DNA of 64,000 bases from Asterionella formosa (Eukaryota): NCBI GenBank assembly GCA_002256025.1, contig NKIB01009067.1:1-64000 (forward strand), given 5' to 3'. The notes under the pieces were generated by a model. The model was not told the origin of the DNA and searched no databases. It was given only the letters and a program-made list of their open reading frames with translations. Made by a program: the position numbers and the translations under genes. Of this stretch, positions 24,041 to 45,278 are shown piece by piece (position 1 is the stretch's first letter; every line of letters starts with the position of its first letter).

Positions 24041-25033
24041 TTAACAAAGGAGACGTAATAAAGTCAACTCGGAGCAATGAGGACAACGGACATTATCATC
24101 TCGATTTGCAACAATGTATCCAGCTTTCAATAGGCTCAAGTTCAAATTGAACAGATCAATCTCATGTTTCCAATCAACTACACGTCCATTGACAACAGTA
24201 CCAGGAAATCCCATTTGCGATCGATAATGCACTTCAACAAGAATTTGCATTGGCGCTGAAAAGAGATCAGCAGAAGATAATATGGAGTCAAAAGCATCAA
24301 ACTCAAAGCCTTCAATATCCATTTTGAGCAAGTCAATTTGCTTGTGACTGTGCCTTTCCGCAAGCTGGTCAAGAGTATAAAAGTTTTTGTCAGAAGATGT
24401 TCCCAAACATTCGTAGTGGAAAAATAGACGATTCGAAGGTGGAACTTTGAATCTGCTTCGATCTCCAGTACAATCGAATGTGTGGACTTCGCAAGATGTC
24501 GACTTCAGTACACCAAGCTCGAAGCTCCAATCATTGTTGCTGCCAATGCTGTACACTACACAGGGTGAACGCAGAGTGTTCAAACCACATACAATCTTGC
24601 TGGTATCACTCCCACATTCGCCTCCCACACATGTTGGGTTGCAATCGACGGCTGTATGAAAGGGGCGAAAGCGATTGTGATTGTGCTTTGTCTGAGGATC
24701 CAAGGTAATTTGTTCCCTATCCCATGCTGTTTGCTTGACAAGACTGTCGTATTTGCTCAACATTTCCGTTTCAGATAACTTGATAGAGGCTAAGAACGGA
24801 TTACGCTTACAAATAGCTCCCTCAAGATTGTATTTTCCTTGGAGCCCGCTATCGGCAGGAACCATCCCATTCATCAATGAATCTTTGATTTGCATCGCTC
24901 TTGGGTCGTTAAGAGCTTGTAATCCATCCCAAGTAGTTTCGGTACCATTGCTTCCCTTGGTAGCGATTAGTACGACGACGCTGATGGCCCAAACAAGAGC
25001 GAGAAACCCTGCTTTCTTTGCTCGGCCGATCAT
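24041..25033 (-). CDS. METTL24/FkbM-like SAM-dependent methyltransferase (Methyltransf_22-like), type II membrane anchor; paralog 1
   Basis: CVVYSIGSNNDWSFE, CEVHTFDCT, IDLLKMDIEGFEF, QILVEVH, CPHCSELTL. Intact and intronless; the MIG start is shared with the paralog. Confidence 0.88.
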   Translation of the reverse strand: MIGRAKKAGFLALVWAISVVVLIATKGSNGTETTWDGLQALNDPRAMQIKDSLMNGMVPADSGLQGKYNLEGAICKRNPFLASIKLSETEMLSKYDSLVKQTAWDREQITLDPQTKHNHNRFRPFHTAVDCNPTCVGGECGSDTSKIVCGLNTLRSPCVVYSIGSNNDWSFELGVLKSTSCEVHTFDCTGDRSRFKVPPSNRLFFHYECLGTSSDKNFYTLDQLAERHSHKQIDLLKMDIEGFEFDAFDSILSSADLFSAPMQILVEVHYRSQMGFPGTVVNGRVVDWKHEIDLFNLNLSLLKAGYIVANRDDNVRCPHCSELTLLRLLC

Positions 25034-25219
25034 GAGATCCTGCATGTACAAGAGCGAGAACTCCTACTTGCTTTGCTAGGCCAATAGCTGACCCTGGTCC
25101 TACAAATGACCTTAATTTTTAACGACCATCAGTTGATGGATTATTTCTGGTCATCGTGAGCTAATTTATGTACTGGAGTGCCGGTACCGGTACTATAGCT
25201 AATATTGATGATGTGTACC

Positions 25220-28200: not shown

Positions 28201-28660
28201 AAAGGCAAACGTTGCCTGTTGCAAGCCCGAATAGAGCAATGGCAGGCAGAATAGAGTGAGAATTATAGTTTTGAGGACGAAATCGGGCATATGTAAAATC
28301 AGTCAATATGTGAACGATATAAAATCTGTTGAGTTTTTAAAATGGTTTCTTTAAGTAGACCCCTTGCCGATTTCGGCAATCCCAGGGTTGGAAACCGAGG
28401 GGCAGTTGGCGTAAATTGTCTTGCCGAAATGCGAACATACGAAATCTATAAAGTATATTTTAATGATAGTCAATATTGGACCTTTGGCAAGATTTTATGT
28501 GAATATAGAAAATATTCGAAATTTATTTTATATGATGGGCTATAGTAAGCTAAAAATGACATTTATGCTGTATTTGTGGGCAGTAGGTAAGCGAATCGCG
28601 TGACGATCGCTAGTTTGTGAATTGCCTCAACAAAACTCTTCTCGGTGGCTACTTGCTTGC
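25220..28660 (+). mobile_element. Family A copy 2, interrupted by family B at 25261-27189
   Basis: 25221-25260 matches 961-1000 and resumes at 27193 (TCTAAGTAATT). 3' inverted repeat at 28602-28626, followed by the shared tail to ~28656. Confidence 0.8.
25261..27189 (+). mobile_element. Family B non-autonomous PIF/Harbinger-group (PHIS) element with 3-bp TSD ACT
   Basis: ACT at 25258-25260 and 27190-27192; the empty site is visible at 998-1000. Ends are GGGCGCGCTC...GAGCACTAC. A sibling at 58984 carries a transposase N-terminus. Confidence 0.8.
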
Positions 28661-30527
28661 CTTCTCGTATACATGTGTACTCGCAGGCAAGAGACCACCT
28701 CGGGCGTATCTTGTCTTCAGTATTACTTTTTATGACTAAATAGTGCACCAGGTACCGGTAACGGATGGTACATGCATACCACTACCGGTTTACTGGTAGT
28801 CTGCTCTGCACTATATATAACTCAGTACCACGTAGAAACTGTAAGCTACAGCTATTTTACTTTATCTTCCGACTAAAAATATGTATGTAAGTATTACAAC
28901 GATCAAAACTTGATGCAAGTGCAAAGTTTATGTTAGATGATGTCCTCTGCTATACTAAATGTATTAAGGAATCAGTTTTGACTCAGTGTATGGAGTCATG
29001 TAGATAAAAAATTCCTAAGTCACTAAGATTGCTTCAGAGCGGTGGCTTACAGTGCATTTTTTTATGTGCATATGCATATATTTTCCACTACACTGTGTGT
29101 ATTCTTACTCCTTTATACCACAATAATTTTTTCTTATTACTTCACGTTTTATTCCTTTGCAGACCAGTATTATCGTCAGAGAATACTTCTTATTCACACC
29201 CTGAATTTTAGGTCAAACCGACACGTATAAAATGGTTGGTACAAAATATACACACGAGAATGACTTCTATCTCGGGCGGACCACACCCATCCATACCTAA
29301 AACAGAAAGTACTGATAATACGTTGCAGGGCGGAGCAGATGACAAAAGATATTGTAACTATAGTATACACACAATATGTAAATTACGACTCACTATCACA
29401 TCATTTCAACCTCAACCAAATGATAGAATGTAGATGAAATGAATAGCTAGCTATTATTAGTGTCAGTACTACTTGTTCTGTTGAAAATTGTTGACAACAT
29501 TCAACAATGGCGTGATTCTTCGGTTGGCTGCTTGAACCAAATTAATTCCCTTGTTCATTTCAATAACTACTAGTAGCAATTCATTAGCATCAAAATTTCA
29601 AAATCAGAGTTTCGATGTTAACATTGTAGACTTTAGTAGTAGATTTATCCATACTGCTAGCTAGTTTGAATAATCTTGCACATTGTGAGTTTAGCTTCAT
29701 GGACTCCTTGCATCGCTCATGAAGCCTCAATGATAGGCTTATGGAGCGAGTTCAATCATCTCGTAAATCTATCAAAGAATCAGGTTATTTGTGTGATTTT
29801 TTAACTACCCGACCTTCTTTATCAGTTTGCAACAAATGGTTGACCCTCAGTGACAAATTTACATGATATGGTGATAGCAATCCAGAAAGCTTGATTCAGT
29901 TCAACAATCAAAAATGCGCCAGAGTTTAAAAACTTGAAGTCGGTAATTAATAGACAAACACATTCTAAGGGGGTTTTCTAGCAATAAGAACAGGTTGGTT
30001 TATCGATGATAGCAGCTGGTAATCGATTGGGCTTGAATTGGCGACGAAAACGAAGAAGTATGACTTTGTACTAGGCATGGATGGTAAACAGAATAAATCA
30101 GACGACTTCATAATCAAACGAACATTTTCATGGCTGTCATGATATCTAGTCATCAACTCTCTATTTTAAAATCACATCAACACATGCAACGAGCTGTTAG
30201 AATAGTGGTCGCATTACCAACATGCAGCTAGTATCACAATATATTTTCAACCCAAAATTCACTTGCAATGTTGCTGCATACTAGCTAGTATTTCAGAGAT
30301 TGACAAGACAGCATCACTTCGGTTGATTTCTGTGACAAGCGATCGTCGCTTCATACAAATGAGCACAACCTTAGCTGGTAATGACAAAGGTGAGCCGAGC
30401 AAACTGTAGACCGATCTTATGGTTACGCAATATTTAATGACAAGGACAACGAAAAGTTAATCCTGACAAGATTCTACAACACTGGTACGTACTGACATGT
30501 ATGTATGTGCATCCATCAGGTACCAGG

Positions 30528-30752
30528 AGAGCGATCCTGCATATCGATACTACAGATGTATGCAGGGTTAGGGTTAGGGTTAGGGTTATATCAAATACAT
30601 CAGAACTCAATTATGAGAGAACTTGACTAAAAACCATTGTAAACTTTGGTGTCAACTTAGGAAACGAGTAGTACAGAAGGGTTAATTAATAAGCTCATTT
30701 ATTCAACAAATAATAACACCTCTAGTTAGATTACCTCTAGTTAGATACTTCA
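30528..30752 (+). repeat. Gypsy 5' LTR (AG..CA, first base mutated)
   Basis: Aligns with 42459-42623 from GAGCGATC to TCTAGTTAGATACTTCA. Confidence 0.85.
30564..30587 (+). repeat. Telomere-like (AGGGTT)4 repeat inside the LTR
   Basis: Seen directly. Confidence 0.9.
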
Positions 30753-30791
30753 CTTTGAATTCAAAAAGAGTCCAATAAGAACAAAACAATC

Positions 30792-33700
30792 ATGGCAATA
30801 TATTCAAGGTTTCCTGTCATCCCTTTGATCAAAGATTACAATGTATTGACTATCAAGACTACTAAGACATTCAGAGTTGCTTTGATCAGTGGAAGGTTTG
30901 AATCATTTGATCAAGATATGATTGATGGAAGCTCTGTGGAAGCATTGTTGATTGGAGTGAATCAATTTCGTGACATGGCTAACACATGTGCCTTTAGCCC
31001 TGCAGATACCTTTTCTTACTTTGAAAGGTGTTTGACCGACATTACCTTATCGGATTGGTTAAATGTGGAAGTACACCCAGAAGATCAATACTACGATAGT
31101 TTCGATGAAGCAATGGTTTTATGGTTAGATGATCATTTACCAAATGAGAGTTTTCAATGTCAATGACAATGGATGCTACACTACTACTTATCTAAAACCC
31201 TTTTCTATGTTGGTAATGGATTTCGGAGCTTGTATTAAAACTTTGAACAAGCTACTTCAACTAATGCCTCATCCAGCAGATTAAAACGGATTGTCAAAAG
31301 AAGATATGCGGATTATTATCATCCGTTCTATGCCTGATGAGTGGCAACAAGAGTTTGAATTGAATCATGCTAAATCTCCAGACCAATCAATTCGCTCGGT
31401 TCTCGCTAAATTCGAGAGTCAACAGTCGTTTAAGGACCGAAACAAGCACCTTCCCAAGAACAGTTTTCAAATAATCACGCAAAATCGTCTTTGTATTGCT
31501 GAAGGCAATCGTGTGATGCGTCAAGAAAACGAGCGTGTCAGTCGTCAATTTTACAACAATGATTTTACTCCAAGTGGTCGTGGAAGAGCGCTTGCTATTG
31601 TCAACGCAGCCGGTCATGCATGGGATCGTCAGGCGACTGTTCGTCATCAAGCTCTACAAGCCAGTCGTACGTACCATGATTATCGTGGTCCTTGCCCGGT
31701 ACATCCTGAAGGTACCTGGTAAACAAACTTGGGGCAATTGTTTTCAGAATCCTCGTACTCAAGGTGGTCGAGCAGGTTGCATGGCTGGTCGTCACAAAGA
31801 ACATGGCCATTCTAGTTTCGGTTGACAAGGACATTTTGGTGGTCACGGAGATGGCTCACACAGCAATCCTACGGAAAGCTACCATACTGACACCCCTAAC
31901 CCTGTGCCTGTTCCACTTACTCATATGTTAAATGCATGGGGTCATAATACTCATTCATCCGGTTGGGGTACCATGCCACATGCCGATCTCAACGAGAATA
32001 CATCTGCCCAAGAAATTTCAGTGGTCACAAACCCTCCTGCCGGTCAGCTAGTGACTTTTGTCCCTACTACACAACAGCAGATTGCTGATCACCATCACAG
32101 AGGTTTGTGCGAAAATAGCGATGCTATTCATAATGACTCATTGAGTATATCTCACATTTGTCATCACCTGAACAATATTGTTTATATACAGGTTGAATAC
32201 ACTATGAATACCGCTGTTGCTGTAACACGGGACATATATAAATGCATCGATGGACATGACGTTCCACATACATATCAGGGCCCAATTCCGGTTTCCTGTT
32301 TTACTTTTAAGGATATATTAACGTCAATTGATCTGATTCCGATGTCTCTTTTAGCGCCACGATTGGTGGATGCTACGCCTATGCATAAAATACTACGAGT
32401 ATGATTTGATAGTGGATGATCCTTATCCTTAATACATGAACAGGTTATGCCTCAAGGTATTTCTTTGTCTAACAAGACTTCCCAATTAATACATACCATA
32501 GTTGGTACTTATTCATCTCATGCCAGTGTTATTTTATATGACCTCATTCTACCTGAATTTTATCGATCTGCTTGTGTTTTACAACAAAAGTGTCAAGTTT
32601 TTAATGGTCTATGCACATTTGATGCTATTTTAGGACGTGATTTCCTTCGTCAAGTTGGTTTAACCATTGATTTCGTAAATAACACCATGTCCTGGAAGGA
32701 TATGACTGTTTCTATGCATTTTCTCACATTCTTTGATGATGGAGAACGTTTTCGTGATGTATTATTATTGTATTTTGATGCACCTCTGATTGTGGAATCT
32801 GCATATGCACTGGAAATTAAAGCTACTGAATACAATTACGTGAATATTGATACAGTTGTAGATCAACAGATGCATTTGACAACAATGCAACAATCAAGTT
32901 TCCAAATAAATTGGTTAAATATCAAACATTATTTGATGGAAAATTAAAAGGTTATCCTCAAAAACAGGTACATTTGGAATTTTCATCAAATGCCATCCCT
33001 TGTCATCAACGGGCATATCCTGTCGCTCATTTTCATTTAGAAGTTTTCAAAACCGAATTACAACGGTCGTGTGATATTGGAGTCATACAAAAATGTGGTG
33101 CTTCTAAATAGGCGTCGCCCACTTTTATTATTCCTCAAAAGGATGGAAGTGTCAGATTGGTGTCAGATTTTCGTGAACTCAATAAAGTCATCAATCGCAA
33201 TATATACCCTTTACCTTGAATGCAAAATATTCTCACTCAAAGTGCAAGATATCTATTTTCACCAAATTGGATGTTTCTATGCAATACTATACTTTCTCAT
33301 TAGATGTAGAGAGTCAAATTTTGTGCCTTATTTTCACTCTATTTGGTTTATATAAATAGTTACGTCTCCCTATCGGTGAGAAGCAATCATCTGATATTGC
33401 ACAAGAAACTATGGAACAGATTCTTAGTGATTTAGATGATGTGGAAGTTTATATTGATGATGTGGATTGTTTTTCAATGAATTTTCCGGATCACCTTCAT
33501 TTATTGGACACTATTTACATCGTTTACAGGCAAATGGTTTTACAATTTATCCATTTTAGTGTGAATGGGCAGTCCAAGAGACAGATTGGTTAGGCTATTG
33601 GTGAACTCCTAATGGACTGAAACCTTGGTCTAAAAAGGACCGAGCATTGATTAATATGTCTTCACCTACCAATCTTAAACAAGTCAGATCATTCCTTGGT

Positions 33701-34750
33701 GCTATTACGTACTATCGAGACATGTTTCCTAGACAATCTCATGTTCTTGGACCACTTACGGATTTAATTGGAACTGGCCCATTTGTCTGGTTTCCTATAC
33801 ATCAAAAAGCTTTTGAAGAAATGAAAGCATTGTTAGTTGCAGATATACTCATGCGTTATCCTGATCATAATTTTACTTTTCATATTTTTACTGATGCCTC
33901 TGATTATCAATTAGGGTCGGTCATTATGCAAAATGATCTCCCAGTTGCTTATTATTCTCGCAAATTATCTGCTGCTCAAAAGAATTATACTACATTGAAA
34001 AAGAATTACTTTCTGTGGTAGAAACTTTCAAAGAATTTCACTCTATGTTATTGGATGCAGTTCTACATGTTCACACTGATCATCGAAATCTTTTTATAAT
34101 ACTTTACACACTCAATGTGTTCTACGGTGGAGACTTTATATTGAAGAATATCATCCTACTTTTCACTACGTGAAAGGAACTGACAATGCTATTGAAGATT
34201 CCATCTCTCGCCTCCCGATGCTTGAGTCTTTGGTGGGGGATGATATTGGACCGAATTCTCCAACATCAATATCCATTTCTACCTTTTCAATTGAGTTAGA
34301 TGATGAACCTTTGCTTACCTGTTTCCTCAATCATTCAATCTTGACAGACAATATTCAATTTCCTCTGGATTATAATTTAATACATGATAGACAATTGCTG
34401 GATATACAATTGATTGTCAATCAACAAACACATCCGTTAAAATTTCCCTCTATCAATTTTCATGATATATTTTTAATATGTTTTGTGAATAATCCAGGAG
34501 ATACTTGGCGCATTGCTATTCCTACATAATTATTGGATCCTATTATTAATTGGTATCATCAGATGTTAGCTCATGTTTGTATGACAAGATTAAATGCTAC
34601 AATTGCTATACAATCCTACATTAAAAGCAAGAGTGGCACATGTCGTAAGCATATGTGAAGCATGTCAACGAACAAAATTAACTGGTACTGGTTTTGGTGA
34701 ACCTCCACCCAGGAATGCATTGTTATTGCCATGGTCAGATGTCGCAGAAG
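30792..34750 (+). pseudogene. Gypsy gag-pol remnant: gag, protease, RT, RNase H, integrase N-terminus
   Basis: SMPDEWQ (gag), FDSG and ILGRDFL (PR), [12 protein letters not shown] and YIDD (RT), FTDASDYQLG (RH), WYH..L.H...CEACQRTK (IN zinc finger). Many stops. Confidence 0.93.
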
Positions 34751-35399
34751 TGTTGGGTATATATAAAATGCAAAGCATGGATCTAACTTAGAAGTTTAGG
34801 GATGATTCTATTTAGTAATAGGACTAGTGATATATAACAGTTGTCATTAGATAGGAATATTATTAGTTTTCTTATAATCTAACCAGCTCATCCAAGGCAG
34901 ACTTAATAGATGCAAATATGAATCTTTGTGCTTTGTGCTTCGGGGTGTTCATGGCTTATCATTCTATATGAAATCATTTTCGATTTTTGAGTCCAGCTTT
35001 TTGTCATCACTGGAAATACACCGTTTTCTTCTTTGGTCAGTCTGTAAGATGCATAAGCAGCAAAGGAGAGTGAATTGCCCCATAATTGTTGTCTGTAGAG
35101 ATTCCGTTCAAAAGTCTATGCCAAGTAGGTACATAAATATGCCGTGAAATTCAGGATATTTCCCTTCTGTATGATTCATGTTACACATCAGCAATTTCTT
35201 CCCAATTATTGCCTTGGCCATTTATTAACCCAGCCGATTTATGGCGAAAACGAGTGAGTTGTTGTTTCATACTTTTTTTTATGCTTCATCAATAGGAATT
35301 CCTTTAGAACTTGCCTAAGCAATGTAACATGCTGATTTCATGTTACAACTGGGTCTCCCATGCAACCTAGCAACTGATGTATCAATGGAGTTAGATTCT

Positions 35400-36514
35400 A
35401 GATGTCCCTTTGGGTGGTGCCTCCAGTAAAATCAGGGCAATAAAACCAGGATAACAACCCTTATTGCAACGAGCTAGAGACCAGTGGATGGCGCTCCTCA
35501 ATTGAATAGCTCAACAAGGTCAGAGTTAATTGGGCTAGCATCCGCCCTCCAGTTTCTTCAGGAATTTACAACATTCCTCTAGAAGATTGAGACAGAGTCA
35601 AAACTGACATTGGCAAGATTGAAGTACCTCTCGTGGACACTCCCCCCAGGGAGGCCTCCAGCAAATGCGGACATCTTAGCATTCCTTGCCCGCTTGATCC
35701 GCTGTCTGAGCTGCAAGGTGCATACAAGATTGGTAAAATCGCACCAAGATCGCTCCGGTACAACAAGGTTGTAAATTGCGGTGGCTTTGAATTTTAAAGC
35801 TGACGAGCTGGCCCGGAATTTCTAAAACAGTTTCCGACTACACCTAAAGGGCGACCCTCAGTAAATTCAGTGCATTTTCCATGGATGCAGGCAATTCTAC
35901 TAGGGAATGGTGTAAGAATTTTCACAGTTTCACAGGTCAAGCAATTTGGGAACACTTCAAAGGTGCACAGCCAGTACCAACTCTATTTTCGGACCAAACA
36001 CAAATTAAGTGCGAGAAGTCATAATAGACAGGAATATCTGCAGCATCCACTTCCCAAAAAACCCCATAGGACAATTATAACCAAATATATTCACGGTTGG
36101 ATCCTCCCAATAACAGGCGACTGCTGAAAGTATATTCATAGTGGTGATCCATTGTGCCCTCCTGACTGTTCTGTGACAGAGACAAATGAACACTTGCTTC
36201 TTTGCAAACACAAAAAAATAAAATATAGCAGAACAAATCCCTTCACTAGTATAATGCGGTCCACAATGGGGAACTACAAAGTGGGAAAAAATATCTCTCG
36301 AGTTTGGCTAGATTATCTGTCTCATCCTCTTAAAAACCTGGGCCAACCATTTAATCTTTGTCGCACCCTGCACTACGCAGAGGATCAAATCAATTCTTCA
36401 AAAGCAATCAGACATCAAGAGCATCTGGGATTTAAGCAAACGCCAAGAGGAGGGTATCTGACAAAACAATGGTGTAATGTGTCAGCCAGAGAATTGTATT
36501 GTGAGTCGTGGTGA
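35400..36514 (+). pseudogene. Non-LTR retrotransposon 3' fragment (RNase H plus zinc knuckle; Ambal-like)
   Basis: FGWC...PVDGAPQLNSSTRSELIGLASAL (RNase H); KYIHGWILP; CPPDCSVTETNEHLLLC. Confidence 0.6.
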
Positions 36515-37349
36515 TTGGGTAAAGGATTTTCTTTGTGTCCCCACTCCTTGGCTGGTGCTGTTTCTCTGTTAATTACTTTCTTTAGATTGGTTGGTCAGCT
36601 AGCATGAGTTTCTTGTCAATTCTTGTGGTTCTTTTATCTGCTTGTAGTGAATTGTATACTGTGTAGGTACGGTTCGACCGAAACGGTCTGTTTGGATCTG
36701 ATTTGGATGCTTGGACATCCCCTTGTATTCACAACGACGATTTTATACCCAATCTTTTCGTTTCAGTTTGCCATGATTGGTTGTCTTGGACGATTCCGAT
36801 TCTTTGTTTGGTGGTATGTTTGGACATGTATTGTTTCAATTTATTCCTCATAATAGGGATTGTTGCTACACTAAAATGTCCTTCCTAGTCGTTTTCGTGA
36901 CACTGCAAGAACTCAGTGCCAATTTCTTACGATCGATTGGACAAATCATAAAAGTCCTTGTTGTGAAGGACGCTTGGCCTAACAACAGACGCATTGTGGT
37001 AAGGGCCCCTGACTGTCCTATTCCTTCTCAACCGTGAATGTAAATTCAACTAGATTTGTTCACTCCGACCATGTGAGCAGCTTTATGCATTCATTGTCGG
37101 AGCATTGTGCACTTGGCTGTGTCGTGAGCAGAAAGACGCCATTCTTCCACCATGCAACCAGTTTTGTTGTTAATATAATGAGTTGCAATAATGATAACTG
37201 CTGTTGATCCCTCCTAAAAAGTCGTTTCCGTTGTTGCTGTTAGAGATAAAAATGGTGTCTTTGTTAATTAATTCAATTACATGAAATAAATTAAATTTAT
37301 AAAATTAGTGTTACTTAATGCTGTATCTGCAGCGATGTACACAGTTACA

Positions 37350-38545
37350 CATTTTGGAGCAACTAATAATGAGTTGCTGAAAGCAACATTCCACCTGGAT
37401 GTTGGAGATACAAAAATTGGGCTGAGAAACACTTTTCTAATTCTTGCATCTCTGTTAAACCCTGCCCATAAGCATTGATAAAGGAATGAATCGCAAAAGC
37501 GGTCTTGTCCAGTCTTTGTTCGGAATATCTGTGCCATAAAGTGTCATTAGCGCTTCACAAGCCTTGGTGTAATCCTCTTTTTTAGTGTGAATAGTAGTAG
37601 CAAACACCAATGGAAAGGTGTCAGACAACCCATGTATTTTTGACCAACTTACTTGAATGGGAATCTCCTGATCTTTAGTATGAATGCGAATTTTTGAGCG
37701 ATATGTTTTGCTAGCTCCACTCGATTTTCCACTACCATTGTTCTATACAATACTCCCACCATTACCATGGAAGAAATCACGAATGGTGCCCATGGTAAGG
37801 ATAAAACTGGTTATTTGGTGTTTTCGAAAATATCCAGGGGCGGGGAGTGTGCAGATGAAGCATCCCATGAAGGTAGTCCTTGGTTACTGCACCTTTGTGC
37901 ACAAAGCGTCTGATTAGTTAAGTTTCAATTGAGTCCAGGATGTTGCCCTGCCTTCTCGTGGTTGGATCAAGCAACTTGGATGTTTCTGGAGCAATGATTT
38001 GAACTGCCAGTGCTTCCTTGAGAATAGCCTTGAATGGTGGTGCTGTTTTATCATTTTGCCAGGAGGGCTTTATATTAAGTTTTGTCTGTTATCTATTGAA
38101 ACATTGCTTGAGAGCAATATTGAGTGATGTTTGATACAGATCAAGGGTCAATGAGTACTGTTCCTTTCCAAAATGGAAATTCTTGGTATACCTCAGTGTA
38201 TGTTGGGCACATGCTCAATGGGGAGAACCATTATGTGTAGTCCTGCAACATCTGTCCTATGATAAGCAGGCAACCAGTACAAACCACCGGTAGGATTATC
38301 GCAACACTTCACCCTCTCTGGGTGGGTAAAATCTTGTCTGGAAAATGTCGAAAATTTCCCATGCAACAAGGTATGTTGCTTATTTGTGATCATTAATTTG
38401 TGTGGTATCCTTTGATAGCACTAATTACAACAATAGGTCCAGTATTCTCCCCATCTTCTGTTTGATAGGAGAATTAGTGAGTTGAGGTGCTCAATTGTTT
38501 CGATCTTTTTACCAGTCAATAATTCATCCTGACGATTTGCAGTTT
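37350..38545 (-). pseudogene. Possible Crypton (CryptonF/NDC10-II-like) tyrosine recombinase remnant
   Basis: Scattered fragments TANRQDEL, EDGENTGPIVVISAIKG, MGNFRH, CCDNPTGGLYWL..YHRTDVAG, TTRRQGNILD and FLSPIFVSP occur in the expected order. Heavily decayed. Confidence 0.4.
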
Positions 38546-38874
38546 AAGATAAATAAATATATGATACAAAAGTATTTGCAGTAGTCCTCATATTGTATGT
38601 CTGTTCTGTACTAGCAATTATGGTAATTTCAAGTAATGTATCATTATCATCACACTATGGTAATCGATGTGCATTTATCGAGTCTATGGACCAAATGCAC
38701 AATGGTACAGGTAGTCTACTACCTAATGGTAGTCCAGATATGATGATTTGCTTGGTTTCTTGTTCAGAAGCAATAAAAGTAGAATTGAAAATATATTATT
38801 AGAAAGATTACCACCCATTTTTTATAATAATGGCTAAATGAATTTGAATTTACAGTAGTCAAGTGGCGGCAAAC

Positions 38875-39855
38875 TTAACAGAAGAGACGTAATAAAGTCA
38901 ACTCAGTGCAATGAGGGCAATCGACATTGTCGTCACGATTTGCAACAATGTATCCAGCTTTCAAAAGGCTCAAGTTCAAATTGAACATATCAATCTCATG
39001 CTTCCAATCAACTTGATACCCATTGACAACACTTCCAGGAAATCCCATTTGAGTTTGATAATGCACTTCAACAAGGATTTGCATTGGTGTTGAAACCAAA
39101 TCAGTGGACGATAATATGGAATCAAAAGCGTCAAACTCATAGCCTTCAATATCCATTTTGAACAGGTCAATTTGCCTATGACCATGCTTTGCCGCGAGCT
39201 GGCCAAGAGTATAAAAGTTCTTGTCAGAAGATGTACCCAAACATTCGTAATGGAAAAATAGACGATCAGAAGGTGGAACATTGAATCTGCTTTGATCTCC
39301 AGTACAGTCGAATGTATGGATTTCGCAAGACGTCTTCCTCAGCATGTCAAGCTCGAATTGCCATAGATTATTGCCACCAATGCTGTATACTACGCAGGGT
39401 TCACGAAGAGTCTCCATGCCACAAATAATCTTGCCGGTATCACTCCCACATTCGCCTCCAACACATGTTGGGTTGCAATCGACAGCTTTGTGAAATGGAC
39501 GAAAACGGTTATGGTCGTAATTCGTTTGAGGATCCACAGAAATTTGTTCTCTATCCCATGCAGTTGCCAGAACAAGACTTTCGTATCTGGTTATCATTTC
39601 TTTTTCAGATTCTTTGATAGAGGCAAGGAAAGGATTTCGCTTGCAAATAGATGCCTCAAGGTCGGAATTTACAAGTCCGCTTTCGGCAGTAACCATCCCA
39701 GTCGTTGACAAATCTTTGATTTGTATAGATCGTGGGTCGGTCATCAGTCGTCGCCTGGTATATTTAGGGCCATTACTTTCCTCAATAACGGAGAGCAAGA
39801 CGAAGCTGGCTCCAACCAGAGCGAGAATACCTGCACACGCTGTTTTGCCGATCAT
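38875..39855 (-). CDS. METTL24/FkbM-like SAM-dependent methyltransferase; paralog 2, located inside the Gypsy element
   Basis: Intact ORF highly similar to 24041-25033 (CVVYSIGGNN, IDLFKMDIEGYEF, QILVEVH, CPHCTELTL). Confidence 0.88.
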   Translation of the reverse strand: MIGKTACAGILALVGASFVLLSVIEESNGPKYTRRRLMTDPRSIQIKDLSTTGMVTAESGLVNSDLEASICKRNPFLASIKESEKEMITRYESLVLATAWDREQISVDPQTNYDHNRFRPFHKAVDCNPTCVGGECGSDTGKIICGMETLREPCVVYSIGGNNLWQFELDMLRKTSCEIHTFDCTGDQSRFNVPPSDRLFFHYECLGTSSDKNFYTLGQLAAKHGHRQIDLFKMDIEGYEFDAFDSILSSTDLVSTPMQILVEVHYQTQMGFPGSVVNGYQVDWKHEIDMFNLNLSLLKAGYIVANRDDNVDCPHCTELTLLRLFC

Positions 39856-41757
39856 GATATATCCTAAAGAATTTTGATCTGAAGGCAACCGGTAAATTTA
39901 TGATCAATAAGATATTCAGTTGAAATGACAATTACGAAGTTGAGGTTGTGTGTTGAACAGTATGTATTACCGGTATATGAAGTCTCCCCTATGTCTATTA
40001 TTTCTTGCTGTCGCTCAATTGAGAGATTGAAAAGCCTGCGTCATTGTTAGGGTTAGCATGGATGTCGAATCCTGACGATACGCATGGATCGATACTTCAC
40101 AAACCTATATAGAAAACGTCATCAAAAAGGAAGGAATTAAGCAAGAGTATTTAGGCCGGTGTGTTGTGTATCATGTTTAATGCCAATATAATATTAGTAT
40201 TCTCTATGCGTGCACATTCTATGTGCCAGGTAGACTCCCTGGTACCCCATACCAGGTGCCTCATTGTTGGTAAGAGCCGTCTTTTACCACAACTTCCTGG
40301 CACCCGGAAGCAAATTTGATTGAATTATGACACCCGGGTTGGTGTGTCGTTATGTATTGCCACTCTACCGGTACCTGGTACTCCAACCTGCAAGTTGCGG
40401 TAATTTTGCTATATCTATTTCCACGTACGACTTCGTAACGGCAATACTGATTCCAATTTCAAATCATTAATACGTGTGTCCCTTTTTGATATCCGCTTAA
40501 TAAACCAACCTGACCGGCTTGTTGTTCCCATATATATTTAGCTTTAATCTGATTTAGCCTAAAAATTGAGACCAATCTGTTTAGCTAATTCTGCCATTTG
40601 CTTCTCATTCATTTTACTTAAAGTAGGACCGTTTTGCTTAAAGTAGGGTCACATTAAAAATTTTACTATTGTTTCATGTCGCTATTATGTAGAATGCACA
40701 CTTTTTGGCCAAGTTTAAAGGCGAGTTTAGAAATCACTTTTATAGTACTACAGTGGCAATCATCAAAACTCGTAGTATAGCGGCTACAGTCACTTCCGGG
40801 TACCGATAGTCAATAATAGAGTCTTTTCACGGCACCCCTTCACCGTGACAAAAGTGTTGACAAAACCGGCAACACAGACCGAATCAGTCCAGTGAAACCA
40901 ACACAGAAATTGGCGGCATGACCAGACTCAAAAGAGAACGAAAGCAAAGCATGCACATCAAAATTGGATCGACTAACAGCGATGAATACGAAAAAGCGCA
41001 TTGGCGGTGAATCAAAAGCAAAACAAAGACACAACGACTACAGCAGAGCACAATAAGACAGTAACGGAGTTCATGGTCACCGCATCCAACGACATGGATG
41101 CCGAAGCGGCATCAAAGAAGGAAACCAGAGACAAAAGACGAAAACAACACACAATTCAATTCACTCCAAATGCAAAGAAGACTACAACTACATCTGTGGA
41201 GATCAAGACCGACATGAATGACAAACATAAGAAAGTATGGAACACCCAAGAGAGACACAAACAACTCACTAAAACAAGAGCCCAAATCAAGGACAAGAGT
41301 ACACCAGCATCAGAAGAAGCAGACAACGACCAATCAAAAGAGGAGAGCCACTACAACAGCAAACAGGTGGACAACAGAGCACACTTTCCAGGACTACAAT
41401 CAAGGGCCACCAATAAAATTTTGGAAGCAGAAACCGAGCGATATATTAACAATCAAATGAAGCAGGAGACCATTAGAACGCCACACCAACCAAATGATTG
41501 CAGGTAAAAGCAACAAAGACACCAAAAATGTCAATGAAAGAATACAATTTTTGCATGAAAGTGTCCGAAAATGCATAAACCGTCAGTCACCAGGGGAGTT
41601 TGCGATCAATTCTGCAATGCGAAGTTTTTATTCGCGTAAAGAACAAGCAGCGTATTTTTGTAGCACTGAAAGCATGTCTATAGTAAACTGTCAAATGACC
41701 TTATCAAGATTCCATAGAAATATGGACCACGAGAATTAGTGCTTACATGAAAATCAC

Positions 41758-42036
41758 TACAAAATTGACGAAGAGGAATTTGTTGCATCTTGAAATGTTG
41801 TACCCTCTCCAAGAATACTGTCGCTCAAGTTTTTTCATCTATTTCTACAAAACATAGAAAACCTTATCTAGTCGAAGTTACCAAGCTAATCACCACTGAC
41901 TCAACACTGTCTCGTTTCTGGTCATATCTTCAAAACTGAACAAACGACGACCAAAAACAACTTCCAGCGCCGATTTCAACTTTTTGTTGTCAATACTAGT
42001 GAAAAAAATGTATTATTGAACGATATTCTCGTCTAT
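41758..42036 (+). repeat. Family D terminal segment, copy 1
   Basis: Near-identical to 45000-45278 and similar to the reverse complement of 56600-56884. Abuts the resumed Gypsy integrase. Confidence 0.85.
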
Positions 42037-42044
42037 AAAATATT

Positions 42045-42425
42045 GTGGATACATGTTTTGCAGCTGCATCATATGCAGATCGAACTAATATTCATAGTAT
42101 ATTACGTATTTCACCAGCAGGCGCATGGGTTTTTCAACGTGATATGATATTAAATATTCCTTTGATTACAGATTTACAATTAATACATCAACGTCGACAG
42201 GTTATAATCAACGAACGCATACGTCGCGTTAATTTCCGTCGTCGATCTTATGATTACAAAGTGGGTGATGAGATTTTAATACTTTTGGATAATCCTACTA
42301 CTTTGGATGATCGTGTACGAGGTCCTCATACTATTTATTCAAGTACATACCAATGGTACAGATACTTTTCAACGCACTATGCATATTACAGAAAAAATTA
42401 ATATTCGTCGTATCAAACCTTTTCA
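42045..42425 (+). pseudogene. Gypsy integrase C-terminal remnant
   Basis: RTNIHSILRISP..WVFQRDMILNIP...DYKVGDEIL...GPH and INIRRIKPF, upstream of the PPT. Confidence 0.85.
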
Positions 42426-42458
42426 TAAGTAAAAGGTTTTCCCTCAAGTGTGGGAGAG

Positions 42459-42623
42459 TGAGCGATCTTGCACATCGATACAGATGTATACAGGGTTATG
42501 GTTATATCAGAACCCGACTAACATCTATTGTAGACTTTGATGTCAACTTGGGAAACAAGTTGTATTTAAGACTAATTAGCTCATATATTCAACAAATACT
42601 ACTACTTCTAGTTAGATACTTCA
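42459..42623 (+). repeat. Gypsy 3' LTR (TG..CA)
   Basis: Follows the PPT; followed by the CCAGG TSD. Confidence 0.88.
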
Positions 42624-42814
42624 CCAGGTACCAGGTACCAGTAATTATATTATATGTATATGATAATATGTATATGATAACATAAATAACAGGACAATTG
42701 GTATTAAATTATCTGGCTGAGTGCGGCCAGAGTTAGATATTCTTTATTGGGTTGAGTAGAATGCATTGAAAAATACATTACCTACCAATATAATATAATA
42801 TTTGATAATGTTAT

Positions 42815-43213
42815 TTATTGACTACAAACAAAGAGGTATTCAATTCCATAGTAGTGGTACTTATAATTGTTACTACTATTCTGCTCGTCTGAAGCAAGCG
42901 TTGCGCCTAATGCGCGATCGCTTACTTCTGTACACTCAAGTTGTGCGGCATACAGATGATCACGAAAATAATCGAGAAGAATGGGCGACTTGTGATTTAG
43001 ACCACGAGTAATGAACTGTGCGGCAATCTGATCAATCTTGATCTTAATCCAGACCTCATCCTCCAAAATGGATTCGAAGTATTCAGGTAAAGGAGAAGTA
43101 TTGTGCCAAGGAACGACTTTCTTGATTTCGGAAGGCTTCCGGGCATGGTCGAGAACTGATTTATTGGAGACCCTGTCGTACACATTGACCAACGCTTTGG
43201 CCTTCGTGTACAT
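42815..43213 (-). CDS. Hypothetical protein or gene fragment (132 aa)
   Basis: ATG-initiated ORF with protein-like composition; no recognised motif. Confidence 0.25.
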   Translation of the reverse strand: MYTKAKALVNVYDRVSNKSVLDHARKPSEIKKVVPWHNTSPLPEYFESILEDEVWIKIKIDQIAAQFITRGLNHKSPILLDYFRDHLYAAQLECTEVSDRALGATLASDEQNSSNNYKYHYYGIEYLFVCSQ

Positions 43214-44999
43214 CTAAGCTGCGAAATACGCCACTTTTCAATATTTGTTCTACCTAGGAGTGTTAATTATGTGGTACTTCACATGAATTAATGCTACTCT
43301 TCCCGTAGAAAAGGCTAATTCATTTACGACATGCATCTTCCTTTGGTACCGGCTATGATACATACTACCAGTACCAGGTACTTGGTACCTTGGGTCTTTT
43401 GACGCTGCACTCAGACATACTAACAAATAGCTATACTTTATGGTACCACCAGGTACTCCTGGTTGGTAAGAACCAGGTCGTCGTTACAAGTGTGAGACTG
43501 TAGGTTCGCCCCACCAGTATTTCCGTCTTCCCCTTCTTGTTACTACAATAGGAATTATGCTGTTTGTACTGTGAAACTGTACTCATTTCTACGTGCGTAC
43601 TGTGGAACTGTAGGTGGCTTTGCCCTACCAGCATTCCCATATTCCCCTTGTTACAATAGAATATGGATTTCGTACTGTGAATATATTAAGAGTAACCATT
43701 GGCTGTGTCCTCTCCTTCTTGTCATATTTGTTTTAGGTCACACTTGTACTAGCATCAGAATTTGTCCCGACAAAGTAAGACTGCGCCAGGTTTTTTCGTG
43801 TAGATTGTAGGTTCTGTTGGTACAAAGATGAAGTCATGGCTGCACCAGGATTTTTTGCCCCCTCTGAATTCATAAAGACAACATTTAACCACCACCGTGC
43901 ACAATATGTTTTCAACATGGGGACGACCCTTATAACCAGCATTCCCGTTCTAGCTTTTCAGCGCCTCACCGTTAACAAGTCCTTCATCAGCCAAGAACTC
44001 ACATATTGTTTGTTGCAACAACAGAAGGTGGAATGATGCAACATTGAGATCGTGAGCAATCAATGCTTTTAAGGTAAGATTTATTTGCTTACTATTTTTG
44101 CTATCATATCACCAAGTGAAGGATAACTCATACTGAGAATGCTGTTGTTTTCAAAATTCATTTTACATTTGAACAGGCCTTTTCAGAAAAGCAGTTTTCT
44201 TTGGAAAGCATGAGTGATAGAAGGCAGGTGAAATGATACAAATGGAGATCCGCAATGGAGTCCTTTCAAGGTAAGCTCAATCTTCAGTTTTTGTCATTGT
44301 ATCAGCAAAGCGAGTGATAAAACACATAGTTCTGTTATTGTTGTCTACATTTATTTTACATTTTAGCCGTCCATGTCACAACAGGAGCATTCTTTTGAAC
44401 GCATTAGTGAGCTGTGGTGCTGCCTGGTTGTTGCCGGTTTGTTGTTTCAATTTGACTGCCCAGATGAACAGTTGAATACTACGACATGTGTGTGTTGCTT
44501 TCTACTGTTGCTAGTTCTAACATATGAATTACTGACACACTGTTGTTATGTAAATCGTTGCAGGTCAATGAAGAAGTCATTTCAAGGACAAGGTGGAAAC
44601 CAGTGTGTGATGCATTCATGTTGCAAATTCGTACAATGATGCCTGTTCAAGAATGAATAATTTTTCCCTTCTGAATGAACGGCTTCTCTTCGTCTTGCAA
44701 TGTCCTTACAAATGTCTCATAATGCATGCCTTCTCAAAACTTAAGATTCCTTTCTGATAGAACTGTTTTGTTTGATTGCATATCGAGATATGTTTCCCAT
44801 GTAATGTGAAATACCGGTAGTTGAATTAGGAATCAACATTATTTGATAGTACTTTTAACTTACATAAACAAATTTAATAGATTACGTGAACTATAGTATA
44901 GAATTACGTGAACAAAATTTTAAGGCAATGTGAACTAAATTACAGAATTAATTGAAGTATTTCAAATAATTTCGTGAAGGTGATCACATAATATAGTGA

Positions 45000-45278
45000 T
45001 ACAAAATTGACGTAGAGGCATTTCTTGCATCTTGAGATGCTGTGCCCTCTCTGAGAATACTGTCGCTCAAGTTTTCTCATCTATTTCTACAAAACATAGA
45101 AAACCTTACCTTATCAAGCTAATTACCGCGGACTCACTACTGTCTTGTTTCTGGTCATATCTTCAAAACTGAACAAACGACGACCAAAAACAACTTCCAG
45201 CGCCGATTTCAACTTTTTGTTGTCAATACTAGTAAAAAAAATGTATTATTGAACGATAATCTCGTCTATGTTAGTCTA
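45000..45278 (+). repeat. Family D terminal segment, copy 2 (ends CTCGTCTATGTTAGTCTA)
   Basis: Aligns with 41758-42036. Confidence 0.85.

What the first reader, a model, noticed from the sequence alone, without database searches (positions are those of the whole stretch)
30523..42628. Intact cellular-type methyltransferase gene enclosed within a TSD-bounded Gypsy retrotransposon
Seen: both LTRs, the PPT and a matching CCAGG TSD show that 30528-42623 is a single insertion. Its integrase breaks at ~34750 (LLPWSDVA) and resumes at ~42045 with the catalytic core missing. The ~7.3-kb replacement holds LINE and Crypton-like debris and a fully open METTL24/FkbM-like ORF (38875-39855), while all the surrounding TE sequence is riddled with stops. 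A diverged, equally intact paralog lies outside at 24041-25033. Inference: the gene was moved into the Gypsy after the Gypsy inserted (cargo of a DNA element, possibly family D whose terminus marks the right junction, or ectopic repair) and is kept by selection.
Basis: partly seen in the sequence, partly recalled or inferred. Interest (0 to 1): 0.75.

Follow-up and report, generated by a model that had tools for sequence, protein, structure and literature searches.

The report
Expressed methyltransferase gene inside broken Gypsy
A working, transcribed diatom methyltransferase gene sits in a 7.2-kb block of ordinary low-copy DNA that replaces the integrase core of a decayed Gypsy retrotransposon; this kind of gene-in-retrotransposon arrangement is already known from plants, and how the block got there is still unresolved.

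Summary
A Ty3/Gypsy element spans 30528-42623. Its LTRs are 225 and 165 nt, and CCAGG flanks both ends. Its pol runs collinearly to about 34854 and resumes at exactly 42037, with about 100 aa of integrase core missing.

The 7,182-nt replacement is mostly low-copy DNA, unlike the highly repeated Gypsy and outer flanks. It holds an intact FkbM-type methyltransferase gene (38875-39855, minus strand). This gene keeps 72 of 73 family-conserved columns and has dN/dS of about 0.3 against the paralog at 24041-25045. It matches a polyA-RNA contig with no differences and is also covered in a lake metatranscriptome.

- **TSD:** the flanking (CAGGTAC)n motif is common, and other Gypsy copies seem to carry the same flanks, so the TSD proves little.
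- **LTRs:** they differ by 16%, more than the element body suggests.
- **Debris:** "Crypton" debris was not found, and "LINE" debris is only a degenerate relic.

The right junction is the end of a 0.5-kb dispersed repeat (D), which points to a one-step, D-linked transfer rather than serial nesting. The main rival is two separate Gypsy fragments around native DNA. This is a new member of a known kind, of moderate-to-low interest.

The parts
30523..30527 (+). Left copy of the 5-bp flank CCAGG. It is part of a (CAGGTAC)n motif.
   Evidence: Sequence. Removing the element and one flank copy restores an in-phase (CAGGTAC)3.4. The motif is common in the window.
30528..30752 (+). 5' LTR, 225 nt. It carries a (GGGTTA)4 telomere-like expansion and a 15-nt duplication that the 3' LTR lacks.
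   Evidence: Alignments: 165 aligned positions, 27 differences, K2P 0.186.
30753..34854 (+). Gypsy body: a gag-like region, then PR-RT-RNaseH and the integrase zinc finger, up to the start of the integrase core. It is broken by stops and frameshifts.
   Evidence: tblastn of 13 polyproteins. Pfam RT_RNaseH_2 at 3.5e-19, RT_RNaseH, and a weak Integrase_H2C2. Integrase HMM positions 1-113. Junction evidence. Stop counts.
34855..42036 (.). 7,182-nt replacement block, mostly low-copy DNA interspersed with small dispersed repeats.
   Evidence: Contig word depth in two DNA runs is far lower here than in the Gypsy and the outer flanks (table 2). No bounding repeats. No TE domains in Pfam.
35733..36510 (+). 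Degenerate retroelement relic (RNase-H tail followed by a Cys/His zinc-finger tail), with one frameshift and one stop. It is low-copy in the genome.
   Evidence: Frames. phmmer gave 21 hits, among them a 99%-identical 208-aa ORF that has R where the window has a stop. tblastn. No Pfam family.
38875..39855 (-). Intact FkbM/Methyltransf_22-type methyltransferase gene (326 aa) with an N-terminal hydrophobic anchor. The transcript spans at least 38855-39950.
   Evidence: Pfam. 239 homologs, and every organism name in the listing is a diatom. Conservation 72 of 73 columns. Environmental contig L001 is collinear with the window, including 95 nt upstream. RNA contigs.
40226..40390 (.). Cluster of GGTACC/CCAGG-type motifs 370-530 nt upstream of the methyltransferase ATG. 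The same kind of motif is seen upstream of other genes in the window.
40971..41703 (.). Second stretch covered by an RNA contig. It is A-rich, holds a 144-aa ORF at 41073-41507 (+) with no known relatives, and runs into repeat D.
   Evidence: A 733-nt polyA-RNA contig with 0 differences and depth 775 (table 8). The protein atlas gave no usable hit.
41536..42036 (+). Copy of dispersed repeat D (about 0.5 kb). Its right end forms the right junction with the Gypsy.
   Evidence: blastn and alignment to 57133-56609 (73%) and 45000-45269 (90%; this copy is 5'-truncated). All three copies share the right-hand end. High depth.
42037..42458 (+). Gypsy integrase C-terminal part, followed by a short polypurine run (42450-42458).
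   Evidence: tblastn. Integrase HMM positions 217-349. Other family copies continue with integrase sequence before 42037, seen as 19 loose ends in X1 and one in X2 (table 7).
42459..42623 (+). 3' LTR, 165 nt.
42624..42628 (+). Right copy of CCAGG, followed by more of the (CAGGTAC)n motif.
24041..25045 (-). Intact paralog (334 aa) outside the element.
   Evidence: Nucleotide similarity (80%) is confined to the CDS. These are the only two loci of the family in the window.

Best explanation
One Gypsy copy inserted into a (CAGGTAC)n site. Later, about 0.3 kb of its integrase core was replaced in a single step by a 7.2-kb block of ordinary, mostly low-copy chromosomal DNA.

The block carried an already old FkbM-type methyltransferase gene with its own upstream region, in antisense to the Gypsy. 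This is now the only close copy of that gene lineage seen in the two DNA runs. It is transcribed and still looks constrained.

The block ends on the right at the end of a full-length copy of the 0.5-kb repeat D, so I take the transfer to have been D-linked. The most likely route is a read-through transcript that began far upstream and ended at D's 3' end, then was reverse-transcribed into the Gypsy with a target deletion (5'-transduction type). Less likely, the block was copied in during break repair.

Shown: the anatomy, the junction positions, the low-copy nature of the block, RNA cover, and sequence conservation. Inferred: that there was one insertion, the order of events, and the route. 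The confidence of 0.5 is for 'one Gypsy, a later one-step block, a functional gene'. Within that, I put roughly 0.45 on D-linked retroposition, 0.35 on break repair or filler DNA, and 0.2 on other routes.
For: - **Break points and orientation:** the 5' and 3' Gypsy parts have the same orientation. Their break points lie only about 100 aa apart in the integrase, with no overlap.
- **Flanks:** the 5-bp flanks match and restore an in-phase motif. Both outer flanks are highly repeated while the interior is not (table 2). In X1, the Gypsy bins read 473,017-1,347,353 and the flanks 202,980-593,437, against 911-1,695 in the nine low interior bins. X2 shows the same pattern.
- **Exact right junction:** other family copies continue with integrase sequence before 42037 (19 loose ends in X1, 1 in X2).
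- **Repeat D:** it ends at 42036, as in 2 of 2 other copies. It starts at 41536, as in the full-length copy, and one other copy is 5'-truncated. An RNA contig covers 40971-41703, running from unique DNA into D.
- **Not a classical transposon:** the block has no bounding inverted or direct repeats and no TE domains.
- **Relic of an old family:** the retroelement relic inside the block is low-copy.
- **Gene age:** paralog dS of 0.47-0.53 exceeds the LTR K2P of 0.186. In the tree, P0007 groups with the paralog to the exclusion of this copy (support 100/99).
- **Gene function:** Pfam hits lie above the cut-offs. 72 of 73 conserved columns are kept. dN/dS is 0.30-0.35 overall and 0.22 in the domain. 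Since the split from L001, this lineage has 5 nonsynonymous of 10 changes against a neutral share of 0.78 (one-sided P=0.045).
- **RNA cover:** a 934-nt polyA-RNA contig has 0 differences. Four metatranscriptome contigs with 0-3 differences (and a fifth, overlapping one with 5) lie over 38932-39850. RNA depth over the Gypsy bins from 31004 to 35011 is zero, which argues against DNA carry-over. 10 RNA rows hold part of the gene stretch; only two of them were laid.
- **Independent sample:** an X2 contig starts at 34825, about 30 nt inside the Gypsy, and runs into the block with 1 difference.
Against: - **Weak TSD:** CAGGTACCAGG with up to 1 mismatch occurs 30 times against 0.68 expected. RNA contigs that diverge from the window elsewhere share 9 nt before the 5' LTR and 10-17 nt after the 3' LTR (tables 7-8). 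Matching flanks may therefore be a property of the whole family.
- **LTR divergence:** the LTRs differ at 27 of 165 aligned sites and by four indels. Positions where only this locus differs from the family look much sparser in the body, at a rough 1.5-2%, table 3. That table is truncated, and the tool says its counts are incomplete.
- **Unbridged junctions:** no contig bridges either Gypsy/block junction with at least 31 nt on both sides. X1 may be the sample the window was assembled from.
- **Repeat D is unclassified:** it has no poly(A), no simple-repeat tail, no Rfam or tRNA match and no TSD. In the two other copies the similarity may run 5-10 nt further than here.
- **Size and source:** a 6.7-kb 5' transduction would be unusually long (recalled knowledge). 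No source locus was seen.
- **Survival of the ORF is not decisive:** at 2% neutral divergence it would escape a stop with P=0.46.
- **A variant with a stop:** one environmental variant (L001) carries a stop at codon 301.
Confidence: 0.5

Rival explanations
1. These are two unrelated Gypsy copies. One is truncated at its 3' side (30528-34854) and the other at its 5' side (42037-42623). They flank native chromosomal DNA, so the methyltransferase gene never moved. The identical CCAGG flanks only reflect the family's preference for (CAGGTAC)n sites.
For: - The motif is common (30 matches against 0.68 expected), and it lies next to LTR ends in RNA contigs from other loci (tables 7-8). None of those contigs' continuations is found in the window.
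- The LTRs are only 84% identical, with four indels, while the element body lies within 7% of very many other copies (85,064 contigs laid at 93% or more in X1).
- The interior looks like ordinary gene-neighbourhood DNA. It carries the same small repeats (D, and the repeat at 36480-36717) that sit beside other genes in the window.
- Recombination that reshuffles LTR-element flanks is documented in a diatom (PMC2806351, passages read).
Against: - It needs two insertions plus two inner truncations.
- The two fragments would have to share orientation and have break points that happen to lie about 100 aa apart without overlap.
- Both outer flanks are highly repeated while the DNA between is low-copy.
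- The right break coincides with the end of a D copy, which suggests an insertion into an integrase rather than a random truncation.
Confidence: 0.22
2. The block was acquired by a progenitor element before this insertion, by retrovirus-like transduction or as a recombinant genome. The whole 12.1-kb chimera then integrated here with help from intact family members.
For: [quoted passage not shown]
- An integrase-less copy could be mobilised in trans by the very abundant family.
- A clean 5-bp flank is present.
Against: - The block is low-copy in both DNA runs, so there is no sign of further copies or of a progenitor.
- The gene is antisense and keeps its own upstream region, whereas transduced sequences are usually in sense (PMC7264820).
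- The right junction is a repeat end, not a template-switch point.
- The size is more than twice the roughly 5-kb intact element implied.
Confidence: 0.08
3. Serial nested insertions built the block: LINE, Crypton, a DNA transposon and others. The methyltransferase was the cargo of one of them.
For: A degenerate retroelement relic lies at 35733-36510. Small dispersed repeats lie at 36480-36717, in parts of 38018-38518 and 40022-41023, and at D.
Against: - Nine of the fourteen interior bins (35012-42025) sit at the low, single-copy-like depth in both DNA runs.
- Neither the block nor the gene is bounded by terminal inverted or direct repeats. The one 16-nt repeat pair around the gene is within chance expectation (my estimate is about 6 chance 11-mer pairs in 7.4 kb).
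- No transposase, recombinase or RT domain appears at E<=1.
- About 0.3 kb of integrase is missing, which plain insertions would not remove.
Confidence: 0.1
4. Assembly artefact: repeats of the Gypsy family caused a false join, so the block is not really between these two Gypsy parts.
For: Both junctions lie at the edge of a very high-copy repeat. No contig bridges them with at least 31 nt on each side.
Against: - A contig from an independent study (X2) starts about 30 nt inside the Gypsy and continues 425 nt into the block with 1 difference.
- X1 and X2 contigs tile much of the block with 0-2 differences (one X2 piece also has a 3-letter gap).
- An X1 contig crosses from unique DNA 40 nt into D (table 8).
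Confidence: 0.06

Closest known systems
[quoted passage not shown]
   Same: A cellular gene lies between the LTRs of an LTR retrotransposon and replaces part of the element's own coding region. It is present in one copy only, and the gene may still be functional.
   Different: Here the gene is complete, antisense, keeps its own upstream region and sits in 7.2 kb of mixed low-copy DNA. The right junction is the end of another repeat. There is no evidence that the chimera was ever mobilised. The host is a diatom.
Flank transduction by non-LTR retrotransposons (L1 3' transduction is cited in PMC7264820; 5' transduction from an upstream promoter is recalled, not read)
   Same: Unique flanking DNA is attached to a complete repeat copy, with an exact repeat 3' end at the junction, an undefined 5' junction and a target deletion. 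RNA from unique DNA running into the repeat is seen today.
   Different: D has no poly(A) tail and no recognised LINE partner. The 6.7 kb carried would be very long. There is no TSD and no source locus was found.
Diatom Ty3/Gypsy elements (GyDi; PMC2806351)
   Same: The domain order is PR-RT-RH-IN. The best polyprotein matches that carry a name are from diatoms (Mayamaea pseudoterrestris, Nitzschia inconspicua, Amphora coffeaeformis), apart from one record labelled Flavobacteriales MAG.
   Different: This is a different family (RNase H part at most 66% identical to any hit among the full-length polyproteins). It is far more repeated than the neighbouring low-copy DNA in this genome and may be specific for (CAGGTAC)n sites.
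Antisense additional ORFs between pol and the 3' LTR (Grande, RIRE2, Retand; PMC7264820)
   Same: An antisense ORF near the 3' end of the internal region, transcribed from its own promoter.
   Different: Those ORFs are present in all or most copies of a family and have no cellular homologs. This one is in a single copy and belongs to a large cellular gene family.

Membership tests
Ty3/Gypsy LTR retrotransposon | pol domain order PR-RT-RNaseH-IN | tested here: met
   13 of 13 polyproteins align collinearly. Pfam RT_RNaseH_2 at 3.5e-19 and RT_RNaseH at 1.9e-11. Integrase_H2C2 scores only 16.9 bits, below the cut-off of 25.5.
Ty3/Gypsy LTR retrotransposon | Two LTRs in direct orientation, with a short TSD | tested here: met
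   LTRs of 225 and 165 nt, 84% identical over 165 aligned nt. CCAGG on both sides. The TSD motif is common, though.
Ty3/Gypsy LTR retrotransposon | Intact DDE integrase core (needed for autonomy) | tested here: not met
   Integrase HMM positions 114-216 of 350 are absent. This copy is a defective member.
Ty3/Gypsy LTR retrotransposon | Primer binding site next to the 5' LTR | not tested
   No tRNA genes in the window. Complementarity was not examined.
FkbM-type methyltransferase (Pfam Methyltransf_21 / Methyltransf_22) | Profile match above the curated cut-off | tested here: met
   Methyltransf_22 at 54.6 bits (cut-off 22.4) and Methyltransf_21 at 32.7 bits (cut-off 22.7).
FkbM-type methyltransferase (Pfam Methyltransf_21 / Methyltransf_22) | Family-conserved residues retained | tested here: met
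   72 of 73 columns that are at least 90% conserved in 118 homologs are retained. The one exception is S141G.
FkbM-type methyltransferase (Pfam Methyltransf_21 / Methyltransf_22) | SAM-dependent methyl transfer and a known substrate | not testable with these tools
   No solved relative by sequence at E<=1. No structure was predicted.
Retrovirus-like transduced gene in an LTR element (Bs1 type) | Captured sequence in sense, transcript-derived, and travelling with the element | tested here: not met
   The gene is antisense and its upstream 95 nt is conserved in L001. The block is low-copy.
Cargo of a DNA transposon (Pack-MULE, Helitron, Crypton) | Element termini (TIRs, or Helitron 5'-TC...CTRR-3' ends) bounding the cargo, or a transposase or recombinase | tested here: not met
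   No inverted or direct repeat of at least 14 nt bounds the block or the gene. No such Pfam domain at E<=1 in six read-through frames. D ends in ...CTAT here.
Non-LTR retroposon (for repeat D) | Copies share the 3' end and vary at the 5' end | tested here: inconclusive
   3 of 3 window copies share the right end. One is 5'-truncated (270 nt) and two start at the same point. Three copies are too few to decide.
Non-LTR retroposon (for repeat D) | Poly(A) or simple-repeat tail, and TSDs | tested here: not met
   No tail is visible in any of the 3 copies. No Rfam or tRNA match.
LINE (for the relic at 35733-36510) | Reverse transcriptase and endonuclease domains | tested here: not met
   No Pfam hit, and none in 13 relatives. 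Only an RNase-H-tail-like motif and a Cys/His tail remain, read by eye.

The most novel reading that the evidence does not exclude
A small retroposon (D) carried 6.7 kb of upstream chromosomal DNA into a Gypsy integrase by read-through transcription and reverse transcription. Because the methyltransferase gene lay antisense in that RNA, it arrived complete with its promoter and stayed functional. This would be RNA-mediated relocation of a whole, self-sufficient gene, and the only surviving copy of that gene lineage would now live inside a dead retrotransposon.
Probability: 0.2. Interest if true: 0.6.

Novelty: new member of a known kind. Interest (0 to 1): 0.35.

Why it matters
If the single-element reading holds, this is a clean diatom example of a complete, expressed cellular gene relocated into a retrotransposon. 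It shows that gene-order change in TE-rich diatom genomes can move whole working genes together with their promoters. It also warns that repeat masking could hide real genes: the exact protein was not among the listed database hits, whereas its paralog was. If the two-fragment reading holds, the locus is ordinary. In either case, the possible site preference of this very abundant Gypsy family for a promoter-type (CAGGTAC)n motif may be the more useful lead.

Tried and rejected
- **Whole genome:** none is held for this window, so family consensus, empty sites and a source locus could not be sought.
- **Earlier findings:** none for this genome.
- **Pfam on 92 stop-to-stop ORFs of the element:** 89 had no family.
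- **Six-frame read-through Pfam on both outer flanks:** nothing found, so the flanking repeat stays unclassified and its continuity across the Gypsy is untested.
- **The 132-aa flank ORF at 42815-43213 (minus strand):** it had no longer relatives.
- **Inverted integrase relic at 34960-35025:** a single tblastn match at E=1.4 was not supported by the 57-sequence integrase HMM, so I rejected it.
- **TSD around the gene:** a 16-nt direct repeat pair at 38526 and 40069 brackets the gene. I rejected it as a retrocopy TSD because no A-tail adjoins it and it is within chance expectation.
- **Inverted-repeat look-alike of D's end at 34818-34833:** seen by eye, but it lies inside Gypsy integrase sequence, so I rejected it.
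- **A-rich ORF:** the protein atlas gave no usable hit.
- **Other searches with no result:** PDB by sequence, Rfam and tRNA.
- **Depths:** those are contig word depths, not copy numbers. I use them only as 'repeated versus low-copy'.
- **Empty-site join:** none (30527 to 42629) was among the 15 joints shown. 38 joints were hidden and contigs of repeats are short, so this says nothing either way.
- **Literature:** searches found no report of a gene inside a diatom LTR element. The preprint 10.1101/2025.10.24.684338 has no occurrence of 'captur' or 'nested'. Two searches on 5' transduction failed on term format and were dropped.

Full report
**What the window is.** It is eukaryotic, at about 35-50% GC, and holds ordinary genes: phosphoglucomutase, purple acid phosphatase, an RRM protein, a fatty-acid desaturase and a lysine methyltransferase. 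The methyltransferase's homologs that carry an organism name are all from diatoms: Ditylum brightwellii, Epithemia clementina and a CCRYP-tagged protein. The runs that hold the locus are mostly labelled freshwater or lake samples. No whole genome is held, and no earlier notes exist for this genome.

**The Gypsy element.**
- The LTRs are 30528-30752 (225 nt) and 42459-42623 (165 nt).
- They align over 165 nt with 27 differences (15 transitions, 12 transversions; K2P 0.186). Four indels separate them, including a (GGGTTA)4 expansion and a 15-nt duplication in the 5' LTR.
- CCAGG lies on both sides. Removing the element and one CCAGG copy restores an in-phase (CAGGTAC)3.4. GGGAGAG abuts the 3' LTR.
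- Thirteen of 13 full-length Gypsy polyproteins align collinearly from about 32320 to 34740-34800 and again from 42024-42045 to 42215-42429. They leave 104-131 residues unmatched.
- Pfam sees RT_RNaseH_2, RT_RNaseH and a sub-threshold Integrase_H2C2. The other 89 of 92 ORFs have no family.
- A profile of 57 integrase segments matches positions 1-113 and 217-349 of 350. Positions 114-216 are nowhere in the interior on either strand.
- Along the tracked frames, pol has 15 in-frame stops per 1000 codons and 8 frame changes between the 9 tracked segments.

**The junctions.**
- On the right, 19 X1 contigs and one X2 contig that match from 42037 onward carry other sequence before it. Other family copies therefore continue there, and the break is exactly 42036|42037 (table 7).
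- On the left, integrase similarity can be followed to about 34812 by alignment. By eye it extends to 'YITVVIR' at 34831-34851.
- A contig from an independent study (X2) begins at 34825. For a 31-mer graph, that places the end of the shared sequence near 34854.
- The replacement is therefore 34855-42036, or 7,182 nt.

**What the replacement is.** Contig word depth is not copy number, as the tool states, but it separates repeated from low-copy DNA.

| Region | X1 depth | X2 depth |
|---|---|---|
| Gypsy bins | 473,017-1,347,353 | 160-956 |
| Outer flanks | 202,980-593,437 | 124-2,014 |
| 35012-36514, 37517-38017, 38519-40021, 41024-41524 | 911-1,695 | 0.9-9.0 |
| 36515-37516, 38018-38518, 40022-41023 | 14,585-49,134 | 21.8-79.8 |
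| Repeat D bin | 378,674 | 406 |

(All, table 2.)

- The block is therefore mostly low-copy DNA peppered with small dispersed repeats, like the rest of the window. D copies also lie at 45000-45269 and 56609-57133, and the repeat at 36480-36717 has a copy at 16726-16999.
- Six read-through frames give no Pfam family at E<=1 except the methyltransferase. No Crypton-type recombinase and no LINE RT/EN domain is detectable.
- At 35733-36510 (+) there is a degenerate relic with an RNase-H-tail-like motif and a Cys/His tail, carrying one frameshift and one stop.
- An exhaustive phmmer search of 1.84 billion representatives gave 21 hits at E<=0.001, and 11 of these were checked against the window. One is a 99%-identical 208-aa ORF with R where the window has a stop. 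Several relatives show the same two motifs. None of 13 hits has a supporting Pfam family.
- No inverted or direct repeat bounds the block.

**The gene.**
- The ORF at 38875-39855 (minus strand, 326 aa) hits Methyltransf_22 and Methyltransf_21 above their cut-offs.
- It has 239 relatives at E<=0.001 among 1,568 candidates.
- It keeps 72 of 73 columns that are at least 90% conserved in 118 homologs. The exception is S141G.
- The paralog at 24041-25045 is 73% identical in protein and 80% in DNA, with similarity confined to the CDS. These are the only two loci of the family in the window.
- Between the paralogs, dN is 0.15-0.17 and dS 0.44-0.53, giving a ratio of 0.30-0.35 overall and 0.22 in the domain.
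- In a 32-row tree, this copy (with P0001) is sister to the paralog plus P0007 (support 100/99). The branch lengths since the split are about equal, at 0.22 and 0.23.
- The lineage predates the LTR divergence and shows no speed-up.

**Close variants.**
- Environmental contig L001 (1,096 nt) is collinear with the window. It has 23 differences in 981 CDS positions and 3 in the 95 nt upstream.
- With the paralog as outgroup, this lineage has 5 synonymous and 5 nonsynonymous changes. The one-sided P is 0.045 against a neutral nonsynonymous share of 0.78.
- L001 itself has a stop at codon 301, within a cluster of three changes in 12 nt. This is either a real null variant or an assembly error.
- P0001 is intact and differs at 6 of 326 residues.

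**RNA cover.**
- Of 24 listed runs, 20 hold part of 38600-40100, and 10 of those are RNA. I laid four runs.
- In the polyA library X6, a 934-nt contig covers 38912-39845 with 0 differences. The Gypsy bins from 31004 to 35011 have zero depth.
- In the lake metatranscriptome X10, four contigs with 0-3 differences (and a fifth, overlapping one with 5) lie over 38932-39850, and there is again no depth over those Gypsy bins.
- The Gypsy is vastly over-represented in DNA, so DNA carry-over cannot explain this pattern.
- Contigs do not give strand.
- A second contig, at 40971-41703 (depth 775, 0 differences), runs from unique A-rich DNA into D.

**Why the single-insertion argument is weaker than it looked.**
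- CAGGTACCAGG with up to 1 mismatch occurs 30 times against 0.68 expected. CCAGG occurs 122 times against 80 expected.
- By position, many of the motif sites lie a few hundred bases upstream of ORFs. One such cluster is at 40226-40390, upstream of this gene.
- Three polyA-RNA contigs share 9 nt before the 5' LTR, or 10-17 nt after the 3' LTR, and then diverge. Their continuations are not in the window.
- The family may therefore always insert into this motif, in which case matching flanks are uninformative.
- The 16% LTR difference is larger than the sparse positions private to this locus in the body would suggest (table 3; incomplete by the tool's own note).
- On the other side, stop density in pol corresponds to roughly 10% decay. 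However, about half or more of the family depth shares some of the frameshift states (table 4). The age of this copy is thus uncertain, somewhere around 2-10%.

**Weighing the readings.**
- For one element: the same orientation; break points about 100 aa apart without overlap; both outer flanks repeated around a low-copy interior; and a right break that coincides with a repeat end.
- For two fragments: the LTR discrepancy and the uninformative TSD.
- My estimates are about 0.7 for one element, 0.2 for two fragments, and under 0.1 for an artefact.

**Route.**
- D ends at the junction and starts at 41536, exactly where the other full-length copy starts. The third copy is 5'-truncated with the same right end. 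That pattern is retroposon-like.
- One event explains the exact D end, the undefined left junction, the missing 0.3 kb, the lack of a TSD and the ordinary nature of the carried DNA. In that event, a read-through RNA ending at D's 3' end is reverse-transcribed into the integrase.
- Against this route: D has no tail, no known partner, and no Rfam or tRNA match. The carried length would also be unusual (recalled).
- Copying-in during break repair is the next best route.
- Serial nesting and DNA-transposon cargo fit the low-copy interior and the lack of termini poorly.

**Context in print.**
- Gene capture by LTR retrotransposons is well known in plants: Bs1, 672 captured genes in rice and 1,343 in sorghum, many still functional. 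Captured sequences are usually in sense (PMC7264820; passages read).
- Diatom Gypsy (GyDi) elements, and TSD-based inference of recombination between LTR elements, are described in PMC2806351 (passages read).
- My searches and a term check in one preprint found no diatom case of a gene inside an LTR element. These were keyword searches of an open-access subset only.
- An FkbM-domain gene is mentioned once as silicon-responsive in a diatom (PMC11151724; one passage read). The substrate of this family in diatoms is unknown to me.

**Verdict.** This is a real, interesting-looking but not unprecedented structure. The gene is very likely functional. The claims 'enclosed in one TSD-bounded Gypsy' and 'moved in afterwards' are plausible but not proven.

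Noticed in passing
window-wide, e.g. 5357-5382, 9553-9634, 13646-13663, 22875-22886, 49362-49400, 56323-56355, 60171-60262, 63837-63848, 40226-40390: The motif CAGGTACCAGG, and its palindromic form CCTGGTACCAGG, is strongly enriched (30 matches with up to 1 mismatch against 0.68 expected). It often lies a few hundred bases upstream of ORF starts. It may be a promoter-region element of this diatom.
   Followed up: partly
30519-30527 and 42624-42640: PolyA-RNA contigs from other loci share the 9 nt before the 5' LTR, and the 10-17 nt after the 3' LTR, and then diverge. This very abundant Gypsy family may therefore integrate specifically into (CAGGTAC)n sites.
   Followed up: partly
30566-30589 (also 40048-40059): A telomere-like (GGGTTA)4 tract sits inside the 5' LTR, where the 3' LTR has only GGGTTATGG. 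A short TTAGGG-like stretch also lies upstream of the methyltransferase gene.
   Followed up: no
40971-41703: An A-rich stretch with a 144-aa ORF that has no known relatives is covered by a polyA-RNA contig at higher depth (775) than the methyltransferase contig (234). The contig continues into repeat D. It could be a non-coding RNA, a new gene, or a D-associated transcript.
   Followed up: partly
35885-36511: A database protein (P0241, 208 aa) is 99% identical to this frame but has R where the window has a stop (36125-36127), plus 2 further substitutions and one missing residue near its end. So the relic ORF is open in a close relative.
   Followed up: partly
L001:96-1076: An environmental variant of the methyltransferase (97.7% nt identity) carries a stop at codon 301 within a cluster of three changes in 12 nt. 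Its other differences form a mosaic of window-like and paralog-like states. It could be a null allele, a recombinant, or a chimeric contig.
   Followed up: partly
31004-35011: The Gypsy family has enormous DNA contig depth but zero depth in both RNA runs across its coding region at 93% likeness or more, so it appears transcriptionally silent there. About half or more of the family depth shares this copy's single-base deletions at 33513, 33993 and 34092, suggesting that a defective lineage was amplified.
   Followed up: no
25513-25742 and 26867-27094: An inverted repeat pair (87% identical, about 230 nt arms, 1.1 kb apart) lies just upstream of the paralog. Further copies of its arms lie at 20565-20788. 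It may be a non-autonomous DNA element.
   Followed up: no
28656-30522 and 42629-44000: Both outer flanks of the Gypsy are highly repeated in the DNA runs. They have no Pfam domain in any frame, and the 132-aa ORF at 42815-43213 (minus strand) has no relatives. This is an unclassified abundant repeat.
   Followed up: partly
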